DNA of 63,567 nt, the filler included, from Gonapodya sp. JEL0774 (Eukaryota), in NCBI GenBank assembly GCA_027604505.1. It is 41 parts of 41 records of this genome, joined end to end, with 100 filler letters (N's around TTAATTAATTAA, not from the genome) between each part and the next. Parts side by side here need not be neighbours in the genome. Positions count along the whole stretch, not along the records: positions 10,939 to 12,399 come from JADIIX010003111.1; 40 more parts are not named here. The stretch is one strand, 5' to 3'. Both the position numbers and the translations under genes were made by a program. Positions 9,502 to 58,082 of this stretch are shown piece after piece; the first letter of the stretch is position 1, and each line of letters begins with the position of its first letter. The notes under the pieces are model-generated. The model saw only the letters and a program-made list of their open reading frames with translations, was not told where the DNA came from and made no database searches.

Positions 9502-10375
9502 ATGGACTACCATGTCAATTGGTGCGCAGAATGTGGAAAACAGTGTTATCCTGATGTGAGTTGTGTCTTGCAGTACCAAAATGTGTCGATAAAGCTTTCG
9601 GTATCATCAACTCCAGACCATCTACTGCTCGGACCGTTGTCGCGACGCAGACGGAAAACGCTCCGCCCCGGCATCCCCGGCGTTCGTCTCCCAGGACCTC
9701 GCAAAATCACCCGCATCACTTCCCTTCGCATCCCCACGTTTTCCGGCGGGTTCTCCGTCACTCCGTCCCTCTGAGCCCCTACCTCCTGCTGAGTTCATGG
9801 CGTTTCAGCTGGAGGCATACGGAATCATTCCAAGCTCACCCGCACTGCCGCCAACGGGACGGACCCCCTCTTCTCCATTTCCCGAGTTATGCTCCCGAAA
9901 CCCCCGGCATCGTAACCTGCCGCCCACCCCAGTTTTTACACCACTACTGAACCTCGAGCCTCCAACCGATAAGTTAGAGCTGGACTTTCTGAGCGGAAGC
10001 GAGGGCTACCACGGAAGTCTTGAGCCCGCGATGGCACTGACGGTCGCGCACCTTCTCGGTTCCACTCTTCCAACACCTCCTGCTTCGACAGTGGCAGGGG
10101 ACCTCGACGAAACGCGCACATTTGATGAAACGGACAATAGATCCACCGCAACGCGCAGCCCGAGCCCTGGGATAATGCTGGAAATGCGCCGGCTATCTTT
10201 GGACTTTGGTGTCAACGACTTGGGACTCGAAACACCAGTTGAGCGAGGCCGGACCGCTCGCCGACATTCCTTTTTCGAGAGGCAGAATGACCCTGTGGGG
10301 ACCGTAATACAAGAGCCACCGAATTTTCCCAGCGAGAGTGGATCTAATGTGGAGCCAGCACCCCAACCGAGATAG
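9502..10375 (+). CDS. Ecl1-like (life-span regulatory factor) zinc-finger protein
   Basis: Removing intron 9556-9616 (GTGAGT..CAG) gives MDYHVNWCAECGKQCYPD-TIYCSDRCRDAD, continuing in frame into the S/P-rich ORF ending at 10375. Confidence 0.7.
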
Positions 10376-11187
10376 TACGGAGTGAGAGACTCTCGGAACC
10401 ACTATATCAACACTTTGGCGAGGGGCAGTGAGTTTGGTGCCCTGCAAAATCCAGAAAAAGCATCCTTTGTCGGGTGAGATGATGATAAAAGGCAGTTATG
10501 AAAACATAAGTTGATCCTGTATTATAGCACCTTTCGGATGGAATGATATGTTTACATGGGAAGCAATTAAAGTGGATTGATCCTGTATGTGATCACTGCG
10601 GTCTTGCCAGGCAATTTTATTTTGATGATGTAATGCCATGATATATGCATGAAAGTGACGTTAAAACGAACATCCCTCGAATTCGATAGCCGCTGTCCCA
10701 ACCAACACATTTCTGACGTCATCGCATGGCCTCGTCCGACAAACTCAGATTCCGAGCGTCCCCCGATTTTCCTTCAAGAATTGCTCCCACGTGATTGGTT
10801 TGTGTCCTGTAATAATTTCCACGTTACCTGTGACCCATNNNNNNNNNNNNNNNNNNNNNNNNNNNNNNNNNNNNNNNNNNNNTTAATTAATTAANNNNNN
10901 NNNNNNNNNNNNNNNNNNNNNNNNNNNNNNNNNNNNNNGTTGCTAGAGCTCTGAGGAAGGGCGGCGGTAAATGCACTGTGTCCGGGTGGTATATCTACAT
11001 ACTTCCGCTCTAGTTTCAGAAAAATTGTAGTTTAAAATGCTTATTTACGCTAAAATACAGCAAGGGTCATAATAAAGTTGCTTTGTCACGCAGTGGTCAA
11101 CAACTACTTCGCCTGCGCAAATCGTCGTCGGAGACCCCCTGCTTTGCCAGCACTCTCGACGCTGTTGTCAACTCACAAGAAAAAGGT

Positions 11188-11664
11188 TTACACACATGCA
11201 ATCTCCTTCCTCAGAGGCGCTGACGGGCAGACAATGCCCTCCAAAATCTCATTCGTAGCAACTAACCCACAAACCTTGTAGAGTCCGGTAGTCTCATCCG
11301 CAGCGGCAGACAGAATCTTATTGCCATCGGCACCGAAGAACTCTACGTCAGCGCCAATACCTGTGAAGGAGACCCCTTGCTTTGCCAGCGCACTGCTGGA
11401 CACCAGCTGCATCGCGAGATCGGGAACGTACAGCACATCTCTGAGCAGAACCTCACTGTAGCCGGTGCGAATCCGAATCGTTCCAACACCGTGCACAGCC
11501 AAAGTCTTACCGTTAGCCAGGTGAAGCTTGCTGGAGGACGGCACGATGCTCTCAAAGTTGTCGAGGAGGTGTGACGCGTGATAACTGGCCCCCGAGTCCC
11601 AAAAGAAGTCGTCTTTTCCCCCAATACACCCAGTCCCAAACGAATCCCTATCAAGTCCCAAAAA
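11188..11664 (-). mobile_element. Ty1/copia-type aspartic protease domain, in frame with the capsid ORF
   Basis: FFWDSGASYH, LHLANGKTLAVHGVGTIRI, LRDVLYVPDLAMQLVSSSAL, GLYKV. No stop codon separates it from the MCP. Confidence 0.88.
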
Positions 11665-12399
11665 ACTCGCGAAAGCTAATCCTCCTAAGCCCGATGTGAT
11701 GCGAAGCACGTTGTAGTTAATAGCGAAGACGTGGACTGTGACTGGGCGGGTACCTGTGGTGAGGTTGAGGAAGAGGGTGGTGGACTCGATCCTGGAGAGG
11801 TTTATAGTTCCACTGGGAGCGTGATCTTCTGGACGGAGTGCGAAGGAGTATGTATAGATTCCAGTGCCCGGTCCACGTGTGTGTGAGAACAGAGGAACGA
11901 TTCGTGAGAAATACGCGGAATTGCGAAGGGAGATCCTGTCCTGATTGTTGACCTGAATCTTGGCCTGGGCCACGGTGTCGCCTCCGGCAAAAGGATTTGT
12001 CCCGCTTCCCGCATCTGAGAAGTCGACCCATCTATTTCGATTGTTGGAAACGTTGTCGGTGGGTTGGACGACCCACACGATTTCCTTGGTGGGATGAGAA
12101 AAGTTCAGCTTAATTCGAGCCGTGGACGTCGTGACAGTCTCCCCGCCATTGTATTGCAGCTGGGTAATGAGGTATTCGTGCGCATTGGAACTGAACATCT
12201 TCCTTTCATCACTGTCGAGGAAGACATAGTCGATGAACAGAGAGCATGAAGTCAATGAGGGCACTCCAGACGCGGGCGGCAACCCATCTGAAGTGATGTA
12301 GCACTCGGAAGCAGGGCGAAGCGTGAGACCAATCTTGACCTCGTGATACATGAGCGCTACCAGGGGCAAAGCTAGACCGGGTGAGTTATTCCACCAGAA
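11665..12399 (-). CDS. NCLDV (giant DNA virus) major capsid protein, C-terminal jelly-roll half (5' partial)
   Basis: FWWNNSPGLALPLVALMYHEVKI, IDYVFLDSDERKMF..HEYLITQLQ, LNFSHPTKEIVW, GIYTYSFALRPEDHAPSGTINLSRI, AINYNVLRITSGLGGLAFAS. Intronless. Confidence 0.96.
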
Positions 12400-24967: not shown

Positions 24968-25250
24968 AAGAATGTGCGACGCTTTGGAATTCATCACAGG
25001 TGCAAATGTTTCGTTGTAATCAATTCCATGCTGCTGTGTGAAACCACGTGCCACCCAGCATGCTTTAAAGCGCACCGAGTTGTTGGACAGCTGTTTCAGC
25101 GCATAAACCCACTTTCCTATCAAAACTGGCACTCCCTTTTGCTTTTCCACCAACTCCCAAGTCCCAAATTTGCGAAGTGCTCCAACTTCCACTTCCATGG
25201 CCAATTGCCAATACTTTGCATAAGGGCTATCCATTGCTTGTTTGTAAGAC
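24968..25250 (-). mobile_element. Ty1/copia reverse transcriptase fragment (degenerate)
   Basis: WQLAMEVEVGALRKFGTWELV, KWVY, RFKACWVARGFTQQHGIDYNETFAPV. Confidence 0.93.
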
Positions 25251-26423
25251 TGTTGAGGTTATAAATGTCCGGGGTTCCAATATGTGATAGAGAGTTATGT
25301 GTGAGGGCTTGTGTGTTGTGTGAAGGGTATTTTTTGTACAGTAAATTGTGTGCACAGAGAAACAAGTGAGAATCCATCCCAAATTGATCTCAACAGGTTA
25401 TGAGCCCAGATTGACTATATCAATCATCCAGCCATCTATTTTGAGGTTCTCTGTGCTGCATCAAGGTCAGGGGCTACTTTTACATCTGGCTAAGGGTGTT
25501 CTGGATATGCAGAGACGTCCTCGAGCCAAACTCGTTCATCAATACCCCATTTTGATTATATCAGTCAAAAGACTTTATAAGGCCTTTCTCTCGCTCCAAG
25601 TTTCACCTCAAACGGTTCATAGGTTGTGGAGATATCCTTACTCAAACATTTCCGCTCGATTGGGTGATCGAAGCGGAACCAATTGAGCGCCAGAATCGCG
25701 AGTATCATCTCAGAGCGCGTTACTTTAAGAGCTTTCAGACGATATAAGTTTCATCCAGATCGGACTATTTTTGGTTGTGTTATTGCTGCTCAAAGTTCCT
25801 TGGCTTATTCCATCAGGAGGTGTCAGTCTATTGAGCCTTACAATTTGGCAATCCGAGAGACATCTATTAAGATATTCATCCAGTCAAATTTGAGGAATTT
25901 GAAGTTTCTGGGTTTCTCAATATTGAAGTACGGGTCGAGTTTGGATGCTGAATAGTTCAACAACGGACATTGATAGAAGGACGCGGATACTCCACATCCA
26001 TACCAAGTAATTGTGGATTCCATTGAGCTTCTGCGTCACTCTTTTTGCCAGTGAATCGTACTTTCATGTGTTGCTCATGGTTGATTCGACGTGGCGTGAA
26101 TGGGAGTCCCTGATTCAATGTCCAAATCCATCGAAATTTCCACCTTCAGAGCTCCAGGCTCATAACCTAATGAGCTTTTGTGGACACCCCCCCTTAGACT
26201 TTTGCTCGTAGGTCCGTCGGGGAGGGGACAATCAATCATCTAGGTCTCAAACTTTACAGATATTTGATGCAGACAAGAACCCAGTTGGGTTGCTTGCTTA
26301 TGTTTCTACACTTGATCCAAATGGTGAGCCAATGGCTCTGAATGCTCATGCTTTTCCTGCAACAGCCAGCAGATCTGGCAGAGTTTTAGTTGATTCTGGT
26401 GCAACTGATTGCATTACCTCTGA
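25251..26423 (+). mobile_element. Second copia element: 145-bp 5' LTR, PBS, decayed gag region, protease start
   Basis: LTR TGTTGAG(25251)...CTCAACA(25395), PBS GGTTATGAGCCCAG (25396-25409), and VLVDSGATDCIT at about 26380-26420. Confidence 0.85.
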
Positions 26424-33772: not shown

Positions 33773-34638
33773 GCGACTACCAAGAGTTGGGGCAGTCATC
33801 GTTGTTGAACTTGCAGAAACAATCGAGCCATTTGAGTCTGAGTCGGCTGCCGTCTCCCGACAAACGGCATACAGGGAATTTACCCGTTCCGCGCTGGGAG
33901 ACTCAGCTTCTCGTTGAGGTGGTCGCGGCGAGAACCACACGCGGGATCGATTCCATTAACACGATCAGGGTCATGATTACGACGAATATTTGCGGGCGGG
34001 AGAATCCCGGGGGCTCGGGTGATGCGCTTTTGGCAGCATCGCTTGCTCTACTCTTTCAGTATTCTATCGGTTACTATAATGGAAAAGATGTTTGCTGTGG
34101 AACGAACGGAATGAACGGCGCGCATTGAAAAAATGAATATATTACGCCGTTATATTCACACACAAACGGGATTGATTCTCCCGATGAAGGCACTCANNNN
34201 NNNNNNNNNNNNNNNNNNNNNNNNNNNNNNNNNNNNNNNNTTAATTAATTAANNNNNNNNNNNNNNNNNNNNNNNNNNNNNNNNNNNNNNNNNNNNACCA
34301 AGAACAATTGCTGATATTGCCAGCATTGAGTCATTTCACAGGGTTGCAATCCTTTACCTGTGGCTCAGGTGAGATTAGTTCTAGCATGAGGACACTCACA
34401 CTCCTGAAAATCATCTGCACTCCTTTCTTTCTCTCAGTTTCCGATTCCCCCAGTCTTTCACAAACCAGGCAACTGTGTCAGACTTCAAGCAAGTATGTGA
34501 AACTCTCATTAATGGCTTCTTGCAAGAGTTACCTGCAGAGTCATGGAGGAGGGATAAGAAGTCTGGGGCCCTCCACCTGAGTAACCAACATCACACCCAT
34601 AATTAGAGATATGACATTGAAAGCACGGTACCGTTTTA

Positions 34639-35749
34639 TGTTGCAATACCTGCTAAACCTTGCAGTAATGTAACTGCCTTTGTTTTGCACCATCACATGG
34701 CTGACAAAGTACTGCATCCTTGAGAGTTGATTACATCGGGAATAGCACATAGTAAATAGAGGGGTGTGTGGCACAGTGATTGAGAATATATCTGAGTAGG
34801 CGGACACAAGGGGAGGGCTGAATAGAAAATAATGGTAGCCAAACAATCCTGATGAACCCGGCCTTTTGATAGCGTACAGAGAGATCTGTAGATCACCACA
34901 ATCAGCAAAGTAGGAACAGTGAAAGTCTTTGCTGTATGCTCGATCAAGTGTGTCTGCTAAGGAGACCCCTCCATCGCTCTTGTGCTACCAAGAAATAAAT
35001 GAGAGAAGATGGAGGCCTGATGGTGGGTTTTTCAATTAGTGACACTTGGCACAACACAAACATTACCGGGGAAATGGAGGGTTCCCGCCCCTGAGATCGC
35101 AATCGCTCCAAATTTACTTCCATTAATTCCAACACCTTCCCAATACAATCTCAAGAATCCAGCCTATCAATATCGCTCTTTGGTGCAAGATCAGCTCAAT
35201 TCCCATCGTTTCTTTTTGTCAACCCTCCATTGGTTTGGATGTTCAATGCTCTGGATCACAGACAGCCACTCCACCAGCGAAACAGCCTTTCGGCTTTTCA
35301 ACCAACTCCCAAGTCCCGAATTTGCGCAGTGCTCCAACTTCCTCTTCCATTGCCAATTGCCAATATTCTGCGTAAGGGCCACTCATGGCCTCTCTGTAAG
35401 ACTTTGGCTCGTCAATTTGTTCAAACTTCTCAAGTATGACATTCAACACAAGCGGATCTGCAGAATCATCAGAATCAGAGTCAAAAGGACTGTTTTCCAC
35501 AGTTCCACGTTCACTCCCCCTGGCAATAAACTCCGGTGGGTTGTTACTCATATCTGCAACTGGATCAGGTGAGCTATCACGTCTAACACGTGTAAGACGT
35601 TCAGGAGTTGGACTTGCAGGTTCTGGAAATCTGTGTGAGACACGTGACGCTCTCTGCAGTTTTGGAGGCTCTGAAGGTGCAGGACGGGGTGGTGGTGTTT
35701 GTTGACGTACAGGTACTTCTGGCACAACATCCACTACATCAGGTGCAAT
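34639..35749 (-). mobile_element. Internally deleted copia element: integrase-RT linker, RT start, PPT and a 3' LTR of about 496 bp
   Basis: EPKSYREAM..WQLAMEEEVGALRKFGTWELV breaks off near 35285. A purine tract (TTGGGAAGG) precedes TGTTGGAAT at 35134, with a matching inverted end TGTTGCAAT at 34639. Confidence 0.8.
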
Positions 35750-40565: not shown

Positions 40566-41506
40566 CTACAAGCGATACAAGTCAGCCAGGTCGCTTTCTT
40601 TCACGTCTGTTACCAGCATAGACCCAGGGGAGTGCGTGATGCATAACTCGGGCCTGGATGCTAACACCACCGCCTGCGGTGTCACTCCGCACGCCCAGTA
40701 CACAGGCATCTCTCCGGGTAGCACCTCTACCGCGTCGCCAAAGTCAGGCTCTCCGAGATCCTCGATGCCAATCTGCGCGGGGTCGCCAAGGTGGACCGGC
40801 GCGCCGTGGACCTGCGGCAGCTTGGCCGTGATTAGCACAGCCCGGATGGCATCGGCTGGCGACATGGGCCGCATCGTGACAACCATGTTACCACGGAATG
40901 CTCCTGCAGGTGCACAAGGGATGCTGGTCTTGAACATGGCCACGTTTTTGCCCTGAATAACGTGGCGAAGTGGGATGCCGGCGTCGATCAGCGGCTGCTC
41001 GAAAGAAAAGGAGCACCCGAGGACAAATGCGACCAGGTCGTCCCGCCAGAGGTCGTTGATATCGGTGCGCTCTTCCACGAGCTCACCGTGCCGCCACACG
41101 CGGTAGCGAGGGATGTCTGTTCGGATATCCAGGTTCGCACCTTACAAGGCAGATGGAGGAAGAACGAAATGGGGAGGATGGCGAAAAGTGTGAGTGCAGG
41201 AGTACCAAACATCTGACGTTTCGCGCAGACACAAGCAGTATACTCACCGAGCTTGGGAATGTTGGGGTTCCCTGGTTCTGAGACACCCAGCAAGGGGCAT
41301 GGCTTTGGGTTGCGCTCACAAAACTGGAGAAAGTCGGATGCTGCAGAGGCCGGGAGAATGACCAAGTTCCCTTGGACGTAGTTTGGCGCGGTGCCGCTCG
41401 TGTGGCCAGTCCAGGAACCAGAGCGAATCGCAAGGCGAGCGGCAAGGCCGTTCGATGCCGGGAGCGTCCCCTTCGTGGCGAACACGGGATGGGATCCTGT
41501 TGCCAT
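40566..41506 (-). CDS. D-glutamate cyclase / putative hydro-lyase (DUF1445, YcsI-like), one intron 41141-41247
   Basis: [74 protein letters not shown]. Confidence 0.92.
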
Positions 41507-43599: not shown

Positions 43600-44106
43600 C
43601 TCGGATCCCACGTCCTTCCAAAATTGATTAAAGACGGATACCACATCGAACCAGAATTTGGAAAGGAGGACAGCTCCGTCGTTGTCTCATTCCCGCTCTA
43701 CGCAGGGGACAATGTTCGCACTCTTCAAGACGTTACTATGTGGGAGCAGCTTGGTGTTGCTGCATTTATGCAGCGGTGGTGGTCTGATAACCTCGTTTCA
43801 GTCACTGTGACATTCAAACCCGAAGAGGCACCACAGATTGAACCGGCTTTGAATCTGTACCAGTACCAGATGAAGAGCGTCAGCTTCCTGCAGCTCAACA
43901 CTGACGCGTATGTGCAGGCGCCATACGAAACGATTGACGCCGTCCGGTATGCTCAGGAGTTAAGTGATATCAAAAAACGCAGACATCACATAGTGCAATC
44001 CACGCTAGCCAGCGATACACCAGAAAGTGTACCGATTCTGAAAGATACTCTCGAAGAAGACGGAAGATACGATGCCTTCTGCGATGGCGATAGATGTATG
44101 ATGTAG
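43600..44106 (+). CDS. nrdJ: Class II (adenosylcobalamin-dependent) ribonucleotide reductase, C-terminus (5' partial), intronless
   Basis: GYHIEP..VVVSFP, WEQL..AAFMQRWWSDNLVSVTVTF, KSVSFL, YVQAPYE, and the C-terminal redox pair FCDGDRC. Confidence 0.9.
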   Translation, partial: LGSHVLPKLIKDGYHIEPEFGKEDSSVVVSFPLYAGDNVRTLQDVTMWEQLGVAAFMQRWWSDNLVSVTVTFKPEEAPQIEPALNLYQYQMKSVSFLQLNTDAYVQAPYETIDAVRYAQELSDIKKRRHHIVQSTLASDTPESVPILKDTLEEDGRYDAFCDGDRCMM

Positions 44107-44165
44107 TGCTCGTGTATAATATTTTTTTTACCCGATTTCATCGTGTGGAGCAAAACCAAACGTCT

Positions 44166-45046
44166 ATGGCTACTGCAGTTGGAAGCATATTTTCATTTTC
44201 ATGTGCACAATCTAACTTTACATTTCCTTGGACTTGCTGTACGGGAGGCAGTGAAGACGAACGACAACACGAACATAAACATAAAAAGTCAGGCGGTGGA
44301 TCCTCTTCTGCCACATCGTTGAAATCTATATCTTCTTCGACGTCAACAACCTCTGATAGGCCGCATTATGCTAAAGCAGTCATAGTTCAAGTGTTTGACG
44401 ACATTGAGTTTCGAAGGAACGTCGACTTTTCACGATTACGTGTACATGTCATTTCGACGGATCTAAAATACGTGAATTTTTTGGAAACGTGCCTTGCGTC
44501 ACCGCCGCGTTTGAGCCCCTTTCTGAAAGGCACGGTCTCTGGTAAGACTGGGCGTGTTTTGAGTGGAGTCCCCTTGAACAAGGTACTCACACCAAATTTT
44601 AACCAACTGTATACACGAATTGTCACGCAGGTAAAAAATTCCCAAGCGACTTCACAGTATCATGTTCTAGTGGATGAACGCGAGCATCGTTTTGTACAAG
44701 GCAGCCCAATACTGAACGAGAGCGGAACTATTGTCGGAGTACTTCTTCTGGAAGCTCCATACAATGTCAATGAATCATCCGGTGAGACCTCCATCAACGA
44801 AATAATTGCGAAAGCCCTCTACGCCCTAGTGGATCGTCATGGTGATGTTATTAGAAGCGATACGACATTGAGTGTTCATATTGGAAATCCAAACTCGAGC
44901 GTAAACAGACTGATGCAGAGAGAGCGAATTGCAAATGTATGCGCGAGAGTTCTCGATCTCGCGATCAAGTCCAAGAAGACTATCGCCTTCGAAGCTTTTT
45001 GCGACACTATGCTCTACGAACGAAAATATATCTGTCAGCTGAATAC
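44166..45046 (+). CDS. Intronless hypothetical protein with a PAS-like segment (3' partial)
   Basis: Starts 59 bp after the nrdJ stop. VHVISTDLKY...RFVQGSPILNESGTIVGVLL resembles the PAS/PAC strand motif. Confidence 0.55.
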
Positions 45047-55661: not shown

Positions 55662-56007
55662 ACAAACCTATGTAGTTTCACTTAAGTTGTGATCCTGAAA
55701 ATTTGAATATCCCTTTCCCTCGGCGAGAGATCACTGGAGTACACAAAACATCTACGAGTTTCATATTCTTTGTGTTTTGTTCGGCAATCTCACGGACGGT
55801 GTAGCAGTCAACAATTAATTTTGATTTCCGCGCGAAGCGCGGAGCTCCAGAAGCTTTANNNNNNNNNNNNNNNNNNNNNNNNNNNNNNNNNNNNNNNNNN
55901 NNTTAATTAATTAANNNNNNNNNNNNNNNNNNNNNNNNNNNNNNNNNNNNNNNNNNNNTTGCCCTGTCAAATCCTTCTGTTCAGAACTCGGCTTCACACA
56001 ACGCGCA

Positions 56008-57386
56008 ATGTCCCCTATCGCTACCTGTGAGTCTTAAAGGACATTGCGAACCGTGATCCGGCGAGTGCGCCATTCCTGAAGCGTTTTATCGCGGATCAAT
56101 CGCACCATTCATGAATGCTCTCCCTCTCCCCGTTTTCCGTCAGCTGAGACTCCGATTCAGCCAGTTGAGCCCTTGCTCGTCAAATCTGATGACAACGTCT
56201 CTCTGTTCCCCATCCGATACCCCGATTTGTACGCACTGTACAAGAAGGCGACTGCCTCATTCTGGCGGGTTGAGGAAGTGGATCTCCAAGACGATATTAT
56301 TCAATTCCAGAATCTCACGGAGGGCGAACGACACTTTATCAAGATGGTTCTCGCCTTTTTCAACTTCTCAGACATCATTGTGATCGAGAGTGTCGTACAG
56401 AGAATATTCGAGGATGTGCAAATTCCGGAAGCCCGTCTCTTCCTGTCCTTCCAGGTGGGCATGCACATGAGATTCGTTCAGGAACATTGTCGTTCTGTCT
56501 ATTTTTCTCTAAAGTACTCTTTCCCTTCATCCATCAGGTCGCAATCGAATCGGTGCACTCCGAAATGTACTCGTTGTTCATTGACTCCTTGATCACCGAC
56601 TCCGAAGAGAAGCTCCGACTGTTCCACGGTCTGGAGCACTACCCCTTCCTTCGGAAGAAAGCTATGTGGGCGCGAAGGTTCATCGGCGACGACGTGGACT
56701 TTGGCAAGCGGACTGTTGGTTTCATCATCGTGGAGGGTCTGTTCTTCTCAGCGTCATGTGAGAATACTAAGAACGCTCGCTCGTCCCGTTTCCTGATTCT
56801 AATACGTCGCCGATCTTATTTTCCCCTCTCCCCATGCCTCTAGTTGCGGCCATCTTCTACCTCAAGAAGCGCGGTATCTGCAAGGGCCTCGCCTTTGCCA
56901 ACAAGCTTATCTCTGCGGACGAAGCCCTCCACACCGAATTCGCCGCCACACTTCTCCGCCACGTGCAGAACAAGCCCGACTCTGCCTGGATCCTCGAGAC
57001 CATGAAGGCCGCTGTGGAGGTCGAGGAGGAATTCGTTACCGGATCTTTACCACTCAAACTCATCGGCATGAACTCAGACCTTATGGTACAATATGTTGAG
57101 TTCGTGGCCGACTACCTGCTCGAAATGATGGGATGCCCAAAACATTACGGGGCAGCCAATCCGTTTGACTTCATGGCAATGCAGGGTATGGAGGTAAGTC
57201 TTGCGGTGTTGGGATATGGAATCCACTCACAATCTGACGCCACTTTTAAACGACCTTCAATATCCCTGCCCTCGGAATATCACTTCACTTCAGGACAAAG
57301 CGAACTTCTTCGAAACCAAAGCCGTATACCGTCTCCCTCAGCCGACCAGCTCCGACCGCGTGTTCTCCGTCGACGAAGACTTCTGA
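56008..57386 (+). CDS. Class Ia ribonucleotide reductase small subunit (R2), short and divergent, 4 introns
   Basis: EPLL..LFPI.YP, ASFWRVEEVDL, ESVHSEMY, VEGLFFS, DEALH, NPFDFM, NFFE, FSVDEDF*. Confidence 0.93.
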
Positions 57387-58082
57387 GGATACAACGCATG
57401 NNNNNNNNNNNNNNNNNNNNNNNNNNNNNNNNNNNNNNNNNNNNTTAATTAATTAANNNNNNNNNNNNNNNNNNNNNNNNNNNNNNNNNNNNNNNNNNNN
57501 TGTGGGTGTCGGGGCAGGAGGTGGAAGGTGAGAGTTTCATGGGAGTTTTACCACATCTGATCGAGATTTTGATGGACAATTTATTTCTTTCCGCTCGTCA
57601 AGGTTCGGCTTTCGTTCCAACTCCTCCATCGATGACGATGAGGTACTTCTTCCCACTCCCTTCGGACTCAACGGCAAGATTGTTCCACCTCTCCGACGTT
57701 GGGATGTCTTCGAAGACGAGGAGGAGCAACAGCTCGGTAACATTCGTAAATCGAGCAAGCGGAGGGGGGCCGATCCGGACGACCCTGATCTAGACGAGAT
57801 AGACGGTAGAGAAACCTTGGGCTCCTCCAGAGGTGGGGTGGTGGAGGAGTATTTCACTTGATGTTACCCGTTTCAGTGGAGCTGTGACAGTCAAATTGCT
57901 TGCGCCAGTGGGTCGAGTTGCTGCCCGTATGTAGTGCAATTTTAATTAATATACATTGGTTTGAAAGATAAAATGAAAATGTGCATGCATATGCGCTCTT
58001 CCCACTTCCATGCAATATCATCTTTTGAGCGGAACGTGATCGTGCAGGAACATCCCATCATGAAGGCCGCTCGCTGGTCATA

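What the first reader, a model, noticed from the sequence alone, without database searches (positions are those of the whole stretch)
11665..12399. Endogenous or co-sequenced NCLDV in a probable zoosporic fungus
Seen: an unambiguous phycodnavirus/mimivirus-style MCP among intron-rich fungal contigs. Known: giant-virus relics have been reported in early-diverging fungi (proposed Mycodnaviridae). Inference: physical linkage to a host-type retrotransposon fragment favours integration in the nuclear genome over contamination.
Basis: partly seen in the sequence, partly recalled or inferred. Interest (0 to 1): 0.7.

Follow-up and report, generated by a model that had tools for sequence, protein, structure and literature searches.

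The report
Giant-virus capsid fused to retrotransposon protease
A short DNA fragment, likely from an aquatic fungus, holds the back part of a giant-virus capsid gene that lacks its usual stop signal and reads straight on into a retrotransposon protease; it is likely a viral relic in the host genome, of a kind already described in such fungi, and the fusion is likely an accident of DNA rearrangement.

Summary
The MCP is real. Contig 10939-12399 carries the last 245 codons of an NCLDV major capsid protein (Pfam PF04451 and PF16903). It is 81% identical to the endogenous MCP of Gonapodya prolifera and is its sister (UFBoot 100), inside a 35-sequence clade holding all five fungus-named MCPs retrieved. 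That makes it Mycodnaviridae-like; membership is not fully testable from one gene. Missing from the finding as given: the MCP has no stop codon. It reads in frame through 16 codons into a complete Ty1/Copia aspartic protease with its DSG motif, with no gag or integrase. All 114 MCP termini found in 101 viral loci stop at once, and no second fusion turned up. Short diverged repeats at the junction suggest a rearrangement in a transposon-invaded viral relic. An in-frame join arises by chance about 10% of the time. Integration is favoured but not shown: no genome or reads were available, so a chimera is not excluded. The scan's notes held capsid-end introns on other DNA, not this fusion.

The parts
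10939..12399 (.). Contig 8 of 41 (1461 bp, GC 0.52), bounded by artificial N-linkers
11188..12399 (-). Single ORF, 403 codons plus stop, open at its 5' end (contig edge): MCP-linker-Copia protease-27-aa tail
   Evidence: a 359-aa gene model of it (P0002) is in the protein collection, 1 contig
11665..12399 (-). NCLDV double-jelly-roll major capsid protein, C-terminal 245 aa, complete to the family's last residue (..GLGGLAFAS) but with no stop codon
11617..11664 (-). 48-nt (16-codon) junction, homologous to neither family; holds two extra copies of the 9-mer that codes for the protease's FWD(S) start
11595..11662 (-). Three copies of TTTGGGACT (11662-11654, 11640-11632, 11603-11595), one in each reading phase; the first begins 2 nt after the last MCP codon
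   Evidence: 0 of 300 shuffles and 1 of 40 other contigs show a 9-mer three times in 80 nt
11272..11616 (-). Complete Ty1/Copia aspartic protease (retropepsin) domain, aa 262-376, with D-S-G motif at aa 268-270 (11598-11590)
   Evidence: model pLDDT 95.7, best fold match XMRV protease E 1.7e-4, TM 0.54
11188..11271 (-). 27-codon tail and stop; no pre-integrase HHCC motif or integrase detected in any frame here or downstream
11099..11160 (-). Degenerate ~62-nt copy of protease segment 11336-11401 (core 27 nt, 24 identical), downstream of the stop
   Evidence: score 52, maximum of 300 shuffles 37

Best explanation
The contig holds a fungus-clade giant-virus capsid gene joined in frame to a Ty1/Copia protease; it is likely a piece of a giant virus integrated in the nuclear genome of a likely zoosporic fungus, and the join is likely an accidental rearrangement that makes no working protein. 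Steps: (1) shown: the MCP belongs with MCPs of zoosporic-fungal genomes, sister to G. prolifera's; (2) inferred: a virus of this clade integrated in the host genome, recently enough that the gene shows no decay; (3) inferred: a Copia element inserted nearby, and break repair or template switching removed the MCP stop, the Copia gag and the integrase region, leaving short re-copied patches of the protease start at the junction and a degenerate protease patch downstream; (4) inferred: the shared frame is chance, and the locus is probably silenced.
For: Tree: window plus G. prolifera UFBoot 100; 35-sequence clade with 5 of 5 fungus-named MCPs UFBoot 100 (60-sequence IQ-TREE) and SH 0.999 (147-sequence FastTree). 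G. prolifera's MCP lies in a small viral island amid eukaryotic genes (PMC5294986, passages). 17 of 141 fungi carry MCPs, 2 of them Monoblepharidomycota, and most viral contigs have host-like coverage (PMC13533422, sections 5 part 1 and 10). LTR retrotransposons inside endogenous NCLDV regions are known (moss, PMC4083422 passages; Copia and Gypsy on the Phytophthora viral contig, PMC8204020 passages). The protease profile hit 0 of 101 viral loci, 1.05 Mb. MCP GC3 is 0.62, within the 0.51-0.72 of seven host-type ORFs. Junction repeats exceed shuffles (0 of 300), and their 16-nt contexts are 75-88% alike, not identical; a clean in-silico join would not need that (inference). A random 30-80 nt spacer is in frame and open 20% of the time, 10% counting orientation. 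The fusion is a singleton.
Against: No flanking host gene is on the contig, and no reads or genome were available, so integration is untested. The break falls exactly at the MCP stop and both protease ends match the domain's limits, which is tidy for an accident. Neither half shows decay. The window MCP departs from 7 of 74 conserved columns, against 8 of 74 for G. prolifera. The protease scores 107.7 bits, at the median (105) of 52 held-out Copia proteases, although these were picked by likeness to it. A 403-codon frame stays open in only 9% of neutral simulations at 2% divergence with indels. CpG is not depleted (0.97 and 0.95), unlike the two Copia RT contigs. So the locus must be young, if not selected. 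No other NCLDV hallmark gene was found in the other 40 contigs, though these are a small sample.
Confidence: 0.58

Rival explanations
1. The junction is an artefact: a library or amplification chimera, or an assembly misjoin, links a normal fungal-virus MCP to an unrelated Copia copy.
For: The assembly is fragmented (41 contigs within a 24-bp size range); the fusion is on one contig only; one partner is a repeat family. MDA chimeras prime on 2-21 nt matches (PMC1855051, abstract). Whether this DNA was amplified is unknown.
Against: The junction has three diverged short copies rather than one clean shared word, and a second degenerate duplication lies downstream. MDA chimeras are mostly intramolecular (same abstract), so even a chimera would hint that the parts are near each other.
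Confidence: 0.17
2. The MCP comes from a virus that is not integrated: a replicating or episomal virus of the fungus, or one from another organism in the culture, whose genome picked up a Copia fragment.
For: No sign of decay and no intron in the MCP; Mycodnaviridae can replicate to about 50-fold coverage (PMC13533422 passage); PMC5294986 raised algal prey as a source for such sequences.
Against: No Copia protease in 101 viral loci; the nearest relative sits in a fungal genome island, and five fungal genomes share the clade, which argues against an unrelated contaminant; all 114 termini in viral loci keep the stop.
Confidence: 0.1
3. The fusion is kept by selection: a capsid-retropepsin protein, either a host-domesticated decoy that would enter virus capsomers and bring a protease with it, or a self-processing capsid in a virus-retroelement hybrid.
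For: One open frame of 403 codons, whole MCP C-terminus, whole protease with DSG motif and a confident retropepsin model; no decay; a diverged duplicate next door shows that DNA here can drift while the ORF did not.
Against: Singleton: PF22936 on 1 of 120 listed hits (itself) and 0 of 120; 0 of 149 Copia hits match the MCP profile; only itself among 754 longer candidates (a weak test). The chance of frame is 10-20%. No integrase, RT or LTR was detected on the contig. The constraint seen in the MCP can predate integration.
Confidence: 0.08
4. The parts are adjacent but not fused: the length of the six-T run after the last MCP codon is miscalled, and the true MCP ends at the TGA-TAG pair a few codons on in another frame.
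For: A homopolymer sits exactly at the junction and one alternative frame closes after three codons with two stops.
Against: Even so the MCP would carry extra residues, seen in 0 of 114 locus termini and 4 of 126 proteins; the run is part of the first repeat copy.
Confidence: 0.07

Closest known systems
Endogenous NCLDV island of Gonapodya prolifera JEL478 (MCP KXS08972.1; viral region with MCP and chitinase on KQ965906.1 per PMC5294986)
   Same: 81% identical over 245 aa, sister in both trees, same terminal GLGGLAFAS.
   Different: That protein is a stand-alone 410-aa MCP on a 34-kb contig; here the stop is lost and a Copia protease follows in frame. Its DNA could not be fetched, so flanks and dN/dS were not compared.
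Mycodnaviridae (Myers et al., PLoS Biol 2026, PMC13533422)
   Same: NCLDV MCP in a probable zoosporic fungus, grouping with MCPs from Catenaria, Polychytrium, Blyttiomyces, Quaeritorhiza and Gonapodya genomes.
   Different: The family is defined on a multi-gene tree and large contigs; only one partial gene is here. No Allomyces (type) MCP was in my tree. No fusion with a retrotransposon is mentioned in the parts read ('retrotranspos' 0 occurrences in the main text).
Ty1/Copia (Pseudoviridae) Pol aspartic protease, Pfam PF22936
   Same: Whole domain, DSGA motif, retropepsin fold.
   Different: No gag or zinc knuckle before it (present in 43 of 60 long hits) and no pre-integrase motif after it (38 of 63); an MCP stands where gag would be.
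Transposon-invaded giant endogenous viral elements (Physcomitrella PMC4083422; Phytophthora PMC8204020; Euglena PMC12455990, abstract start only)
   Same: Viral genes next to LTR-retrotransposon pieces, taken as a sign of residence and erosion in the host genome.
   Different: Those are shown on long scaffolds; the passages seen report insertions, not an in-frame capsid-protease ORF.

Membership tests
Nucleocytoviricota major capsid protein | PF04451 and PF16903 above curated cut-offs, in order | tested here: met
   154.9 vs 34.8 bits and 41.2 vs 24 bits; PBCV-1 capsid chains E 5e-46
Nucleocytoviricota major capsid protein | Protein ends at the GxGGLAxxN/S motif | tested here: not met
   Motif present but followed by 158 more codons; 114 of 114 termini in loci stop at once; 122 of 126 proteins with the motif end there
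Mycodnaviridae | MCP groups with MCPs of zoosporic-fungal genomes | tested here: met
   UFBoot 100 clade of 35 with 5 of 5 fungus-named MCPs
Mycodnaviridae | Monophyly with named family members (Allomyces viruses, MY_02 GVMAGs) | tested here: inconclusive
   No Allomyces or MY_02-labelled sequence was retrieved; the paper's host table could not be read
Mycodnaviridae | At least 3 of 7 GVOG markers on a concatenated tree; core genes (PolB, A32, VLTF3, D5) | not testable with these tools
   No genome held; in the other 40 contigs only a DEAD helicase and an intron-split RNR small chain matched viral loci
Giant endogenous viral element | Physical continuity with host chromosome at host-like depth | not testable with these tools
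   1.46-kb contig, no host gene on it; no run was listed
Giant endogenous viral element | Host-type marks: TE invasion, CpG decay, introns | tested here: inconclusive
   Copia piece present; CpG o/e 0.97, not depleted; no intron in the MCP part
Ty1/Copia retrotransposon (intact element) | Aspartic protease with D-S/T-G motif | tested here: met
   111 bits against a Copia profile, aa 262-376; retropepsin fold
Ty1/Copia retrotransposon (intact element) | gag before, integrase-RT-RNase H after the protease | tested here: not met
   Profile covering knuckle to integrase matches only positions 111-227 of 495; nothing in six frames elsewhere on the contig. Only 333 nt follow the protease, so sequence beyond the contig is unknown
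Ty1/Copia retrotransposon (intact element) | Paired LTRs and target-site duplication | not testable with these tools
   Contig too short; no long direct repeat inside it
Group I intron at the MCP 3' end | Rfam group I intron match | tested here: not met
   Only one sub-threshold snoRNA hit on the contig at E up to 1

The most novel reading that the evidence does not exclude
A fungus, or its resident giant virus, keeps an expressed gene in which a giant-virus double-jelly-roll capsid protein replaces Gag in front of an active Copia protease: a capsid-protease chimera across two viral realms, acting as an antiviral decoy or as a self-processing capsid of a hybrid element.
Probability: 0.08. Interest if true: 0.85.

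Novelty: new member of a known kind. Interest (0 to 1): 0.36.

Why it matters
As a viral relic it adds one partial MCP to a fungal giant-virus clade that is already published, and shows a Gonapodya-type lineage 19% diverged from the known copy. The record may already be among the 17 fungi screened positive in PMC13533422; that table could not be read. The part not found in print (searches, listings only) is the in-frame capsid-protease ORF. If real but accidental, it is a snapshot of how host retrotransposons dismantle integrated giant viruses. If selected, it would be a chimera between a DNA-virus capsid and a retroelement enzyme, and a candidate fungal defence against Mycodnaviridae. A junction PCR and RT-PCR would tell these apart.

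Tried and rejected
Whole genome: none held, so the PolB, A32, VLTF3 and D5 search and the depth comparison could not be run. Sequencing runs: none was listed, so no reads were laid. Atlas: not available for the window's own sequences; the G. prolifera homologue returned only NCLDV MCP clusters. Group I intron at the capsid end, a lead from earlier notes: rejected. Intact Copia with MCP as gag: no integrase or RT on the contig. 12-nt inverted repeat 10949-10960 / 11205-11216 as MITE ends: rejected, 8 of 41 contigs have one as long. Tail as a full second protease copy: only about 62 nt align significantly; two permissive scorings were within the null, and the protease profile found nothing in the tail. 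Close relatives of the protease: none; a 19-nt pattern had 0 matches in viral contigs. Contig 29 as a second viral contig: no relative of either ORF in viral contigs, and class II RNR is known in non-Dikarya fungi (PMC8085122 passages); left open. A joint alignment for folding the fusion misaligned the protease rows and was not used. Support labels printed were shifted by re-rooting; values were re-read from bipartitions. No complex prediction was run.

Full report
Setting. The window is not one locus. It is 41 contigs of 1441-1464 bp, sorted by size and joined by N-linkers. Only 10939-12399 is physically linked to the finding.

Observation. The minus strand of the contig carries one frame of 403 codons, open at the contig edge and closed at 11188. 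Residues 1-245 match PF16903 and PF04451 above their cut-offs and PBCV-1 capsid chains (E 4.9e-46). Residues 266-342 match PF22936 Pol_BBD (E 1.4e-16). The MCP is therefore real, and the retrotransposon piece is in the same frame, not only nearby.

What the MCP is. The best non-self hit of 1569 is Gonapodya prolifera KXS08972.1 at 81% identity; the next hits are environmental at 62% or less. A profile search added MCPs named from Catenaria anguillulae, Polychytrium aggregatum, Blyttiomyces helicus and Quaeritorhiza haematococci. I built a FastTree of 147 sequences: the window MCP, P0003-P0029, P0066, P0287-P0389, and 15 of the remaining long hits as outgroup; locus-derived MCPs were left out. 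I also built an IQ-TREE of 60 of these (the 35-member clade, 20 random others, 5 outgroups), both on the 245 window columns. Read from bipartitions, window plus G. prolifera has UFBoot 100 and SH 1.0, and a 35-sequence clade holding 5 of 5 fungus-named MCPs has UFBoot 100 and SH 0.999; nodes between them are weak. The trees hold no named algal or amoebal virus and no Allomyces sequence, so they show kinship with fungal MCPs, not a formal family or order. The 47 differences from G. prolifera avoid conserved columns (7 observed, 14.2 expected, P 0.007). The window copy departs from 7 of 74 conserved columns, against 8 of 74 for G. prolifera. This shows constraint and no decay, but the constraint may predate integration.

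The host. Neighbouring contigs carry eukaryote-type genes (262 of the window's ORFs were scanned in these two calls) with GT-AG intron candidates. The RNR small chain scores best against 1smq/1jk0 (yeast origin recalled), and PRPP synthetase scores far higher against eukaryote-type than bacterial chains (organisms recalled from entry names). A fungal Ecl1 hit is below cut-off. Fungal is likely; zoosporic is inferred from the MCP's relatives only.

The second domain. A search of 1.84 billion representatives gave 581 hits at E up to 0.001, the best at 31-40% identity, among them full Copia polyproteins with gag, integrase and RT. A profile spanning zinc knuckle to integrase matches only aa 262-376 (111 bits) and nothing else in six frames. 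The domain keeps DSGA, folds with pLDDT 95.7 and matches retroviral proteases (XMRV, E 1.7e-4, TM 0.54). It is a whole Copia aspartic protease. It lacks the knuckle that 43 of 60 long hits have upstream and the pre-integrase motif that 38 of 63 have downstream. Activity is untested.

The junction. The MCP is complete to its family's last residue. In 101 viral and metagenomic loci, 114 of 114 terminal motifs are followed at once by a stop. Among proteins, 122 of 126 with the motif end there; the motif was not matched in 20 of 146. Here 16 codons follow, then the protease. The 9-mer coding the protease start occurs three times in 68 nt, first 2 nt after the last MCP codon; 0 of 300 shuffles and 1 of 40 other contigs do this. 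A ~62-nt degenerate copy of another protease segment lies downstream of the stop (score 52, shuffle maximum 37); 4 of 40 other contigs have a 27-nt repeat as good. Short re-copied patches are what templated break repair or template switching leave (own knowledge). A random spacer is in frame and open in 20% of draws, 10% with orientation, so the frame needs no selection. Against plain junk: the frame stays open in 28% of neutral simulations at 1% divergence with indels and in 9% at 2%, and CpG is undepleted (0.97 and 0.95) while two Copia RT contigs in the window are at 0.57 and 0.40. The locus is therefore young, artefactual or selected.

Is the fusion seen elsewhere? No. PF22936 is on 1 of 120 listed hits (itself) and 0 of 120. 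None of 149 Copia hits matches the MCP profile. The longer-protein search found only itself among 754 candidates (weak). The protease profile hit 0 of 101 loci. MCP-side searches did not cover proteins longer than 734 aa.

Literature. PMC13533422 (abstract, Results part 1 of 2, Discussion, methods section 14, passages; 4 of 10 supplements searchable) reports MCPs in 17 of 141 fungi, 2 in Monoblepharidomycota, integrated proviruses in Allomyces, and lone MCPs on host contigs in three isolates. Its preprint was seen as passages. PMC5294986 (passages) describes the G. prolifera viral island. PMC4083422 and PMC8204020 (passages) report LTR elements in or around endogenous giant-virus regions. PMC1855051 (abstract) covers MDA chimeras. 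PMC8085122 (passages) covers class II RNR in early fungi. Searches (listings only) showed no title or abstract start on an MCP-Copia protease fusion.

Verdict. Most likely (0.58) this is a young endogenous Mycodnaviridae-like relic whose capsid gene was joined to a Copia fragment by rearrangement. Rivals: chimera 0.17, non-integrated virus 0.10, selected fusion 0.08, homopolymer miscall 0.07. The relic is a new member of a known kind; the fusion is an unreplicated oddity that one PCR could settle. Interest 0.36.

Noticed in passing
window 43600-44106 (+), contig 29: C-terminal 168 aa of a class II (cobalamin-dependent) ribonucleotide reductase (TIGR02505 E 2.6e-15), uninterrupted, followed by an unannotated ORF of up to 317 codons (44094-45044). 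The contig has the highest CpG o/e in the window (1.19) and GC 0.457. It could be a host gene, as known in non-Dikarya fungi, or viral; no relative was found in viral contigs.
   Followed up: partly
window 24968-26423 and 34297-35749 (contigs 17, 23): Two decayed Copia reverse-transcriptase pieces (PF07727 on contig 17; contig 23 by the matching motif in its translation) with CpG o/e 0.57 and 0.40 against a window median of 0.98, suggesting that the host methylates transposons.
   Followed up: partly
window 55959-57400 (contig 37): Intron-split class I RNR small chain; with contig 29, the assembly holds both class I and class II RNR genes.
   Followed up: partly
P0009, P0011: Two environmental MCPs of the same clade diverge right after the terminal GGL, near the site where earlier notes describe group I introns; their DNA was not examined.
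   Followed up: no
P0294, P0379: MCPs with 17-aa and 56-aa C-terminal extensions after the terminal motif; neither lists PF22936.
   Followed up: no
P0133, P0135, P0138: Several best protease hits carry two Pol_BBD domains in one protein.
   Followed up: no
window 9593-10372 (+), contig 7: Weak match to the fungal Ecl1 family (E 4.5e-4, below cut-off).
   Followed up: no
window 40569-41141 (-), contig 27: Strong D-glutamate cyclase match (E 2.2e-65).
   Followed up: no
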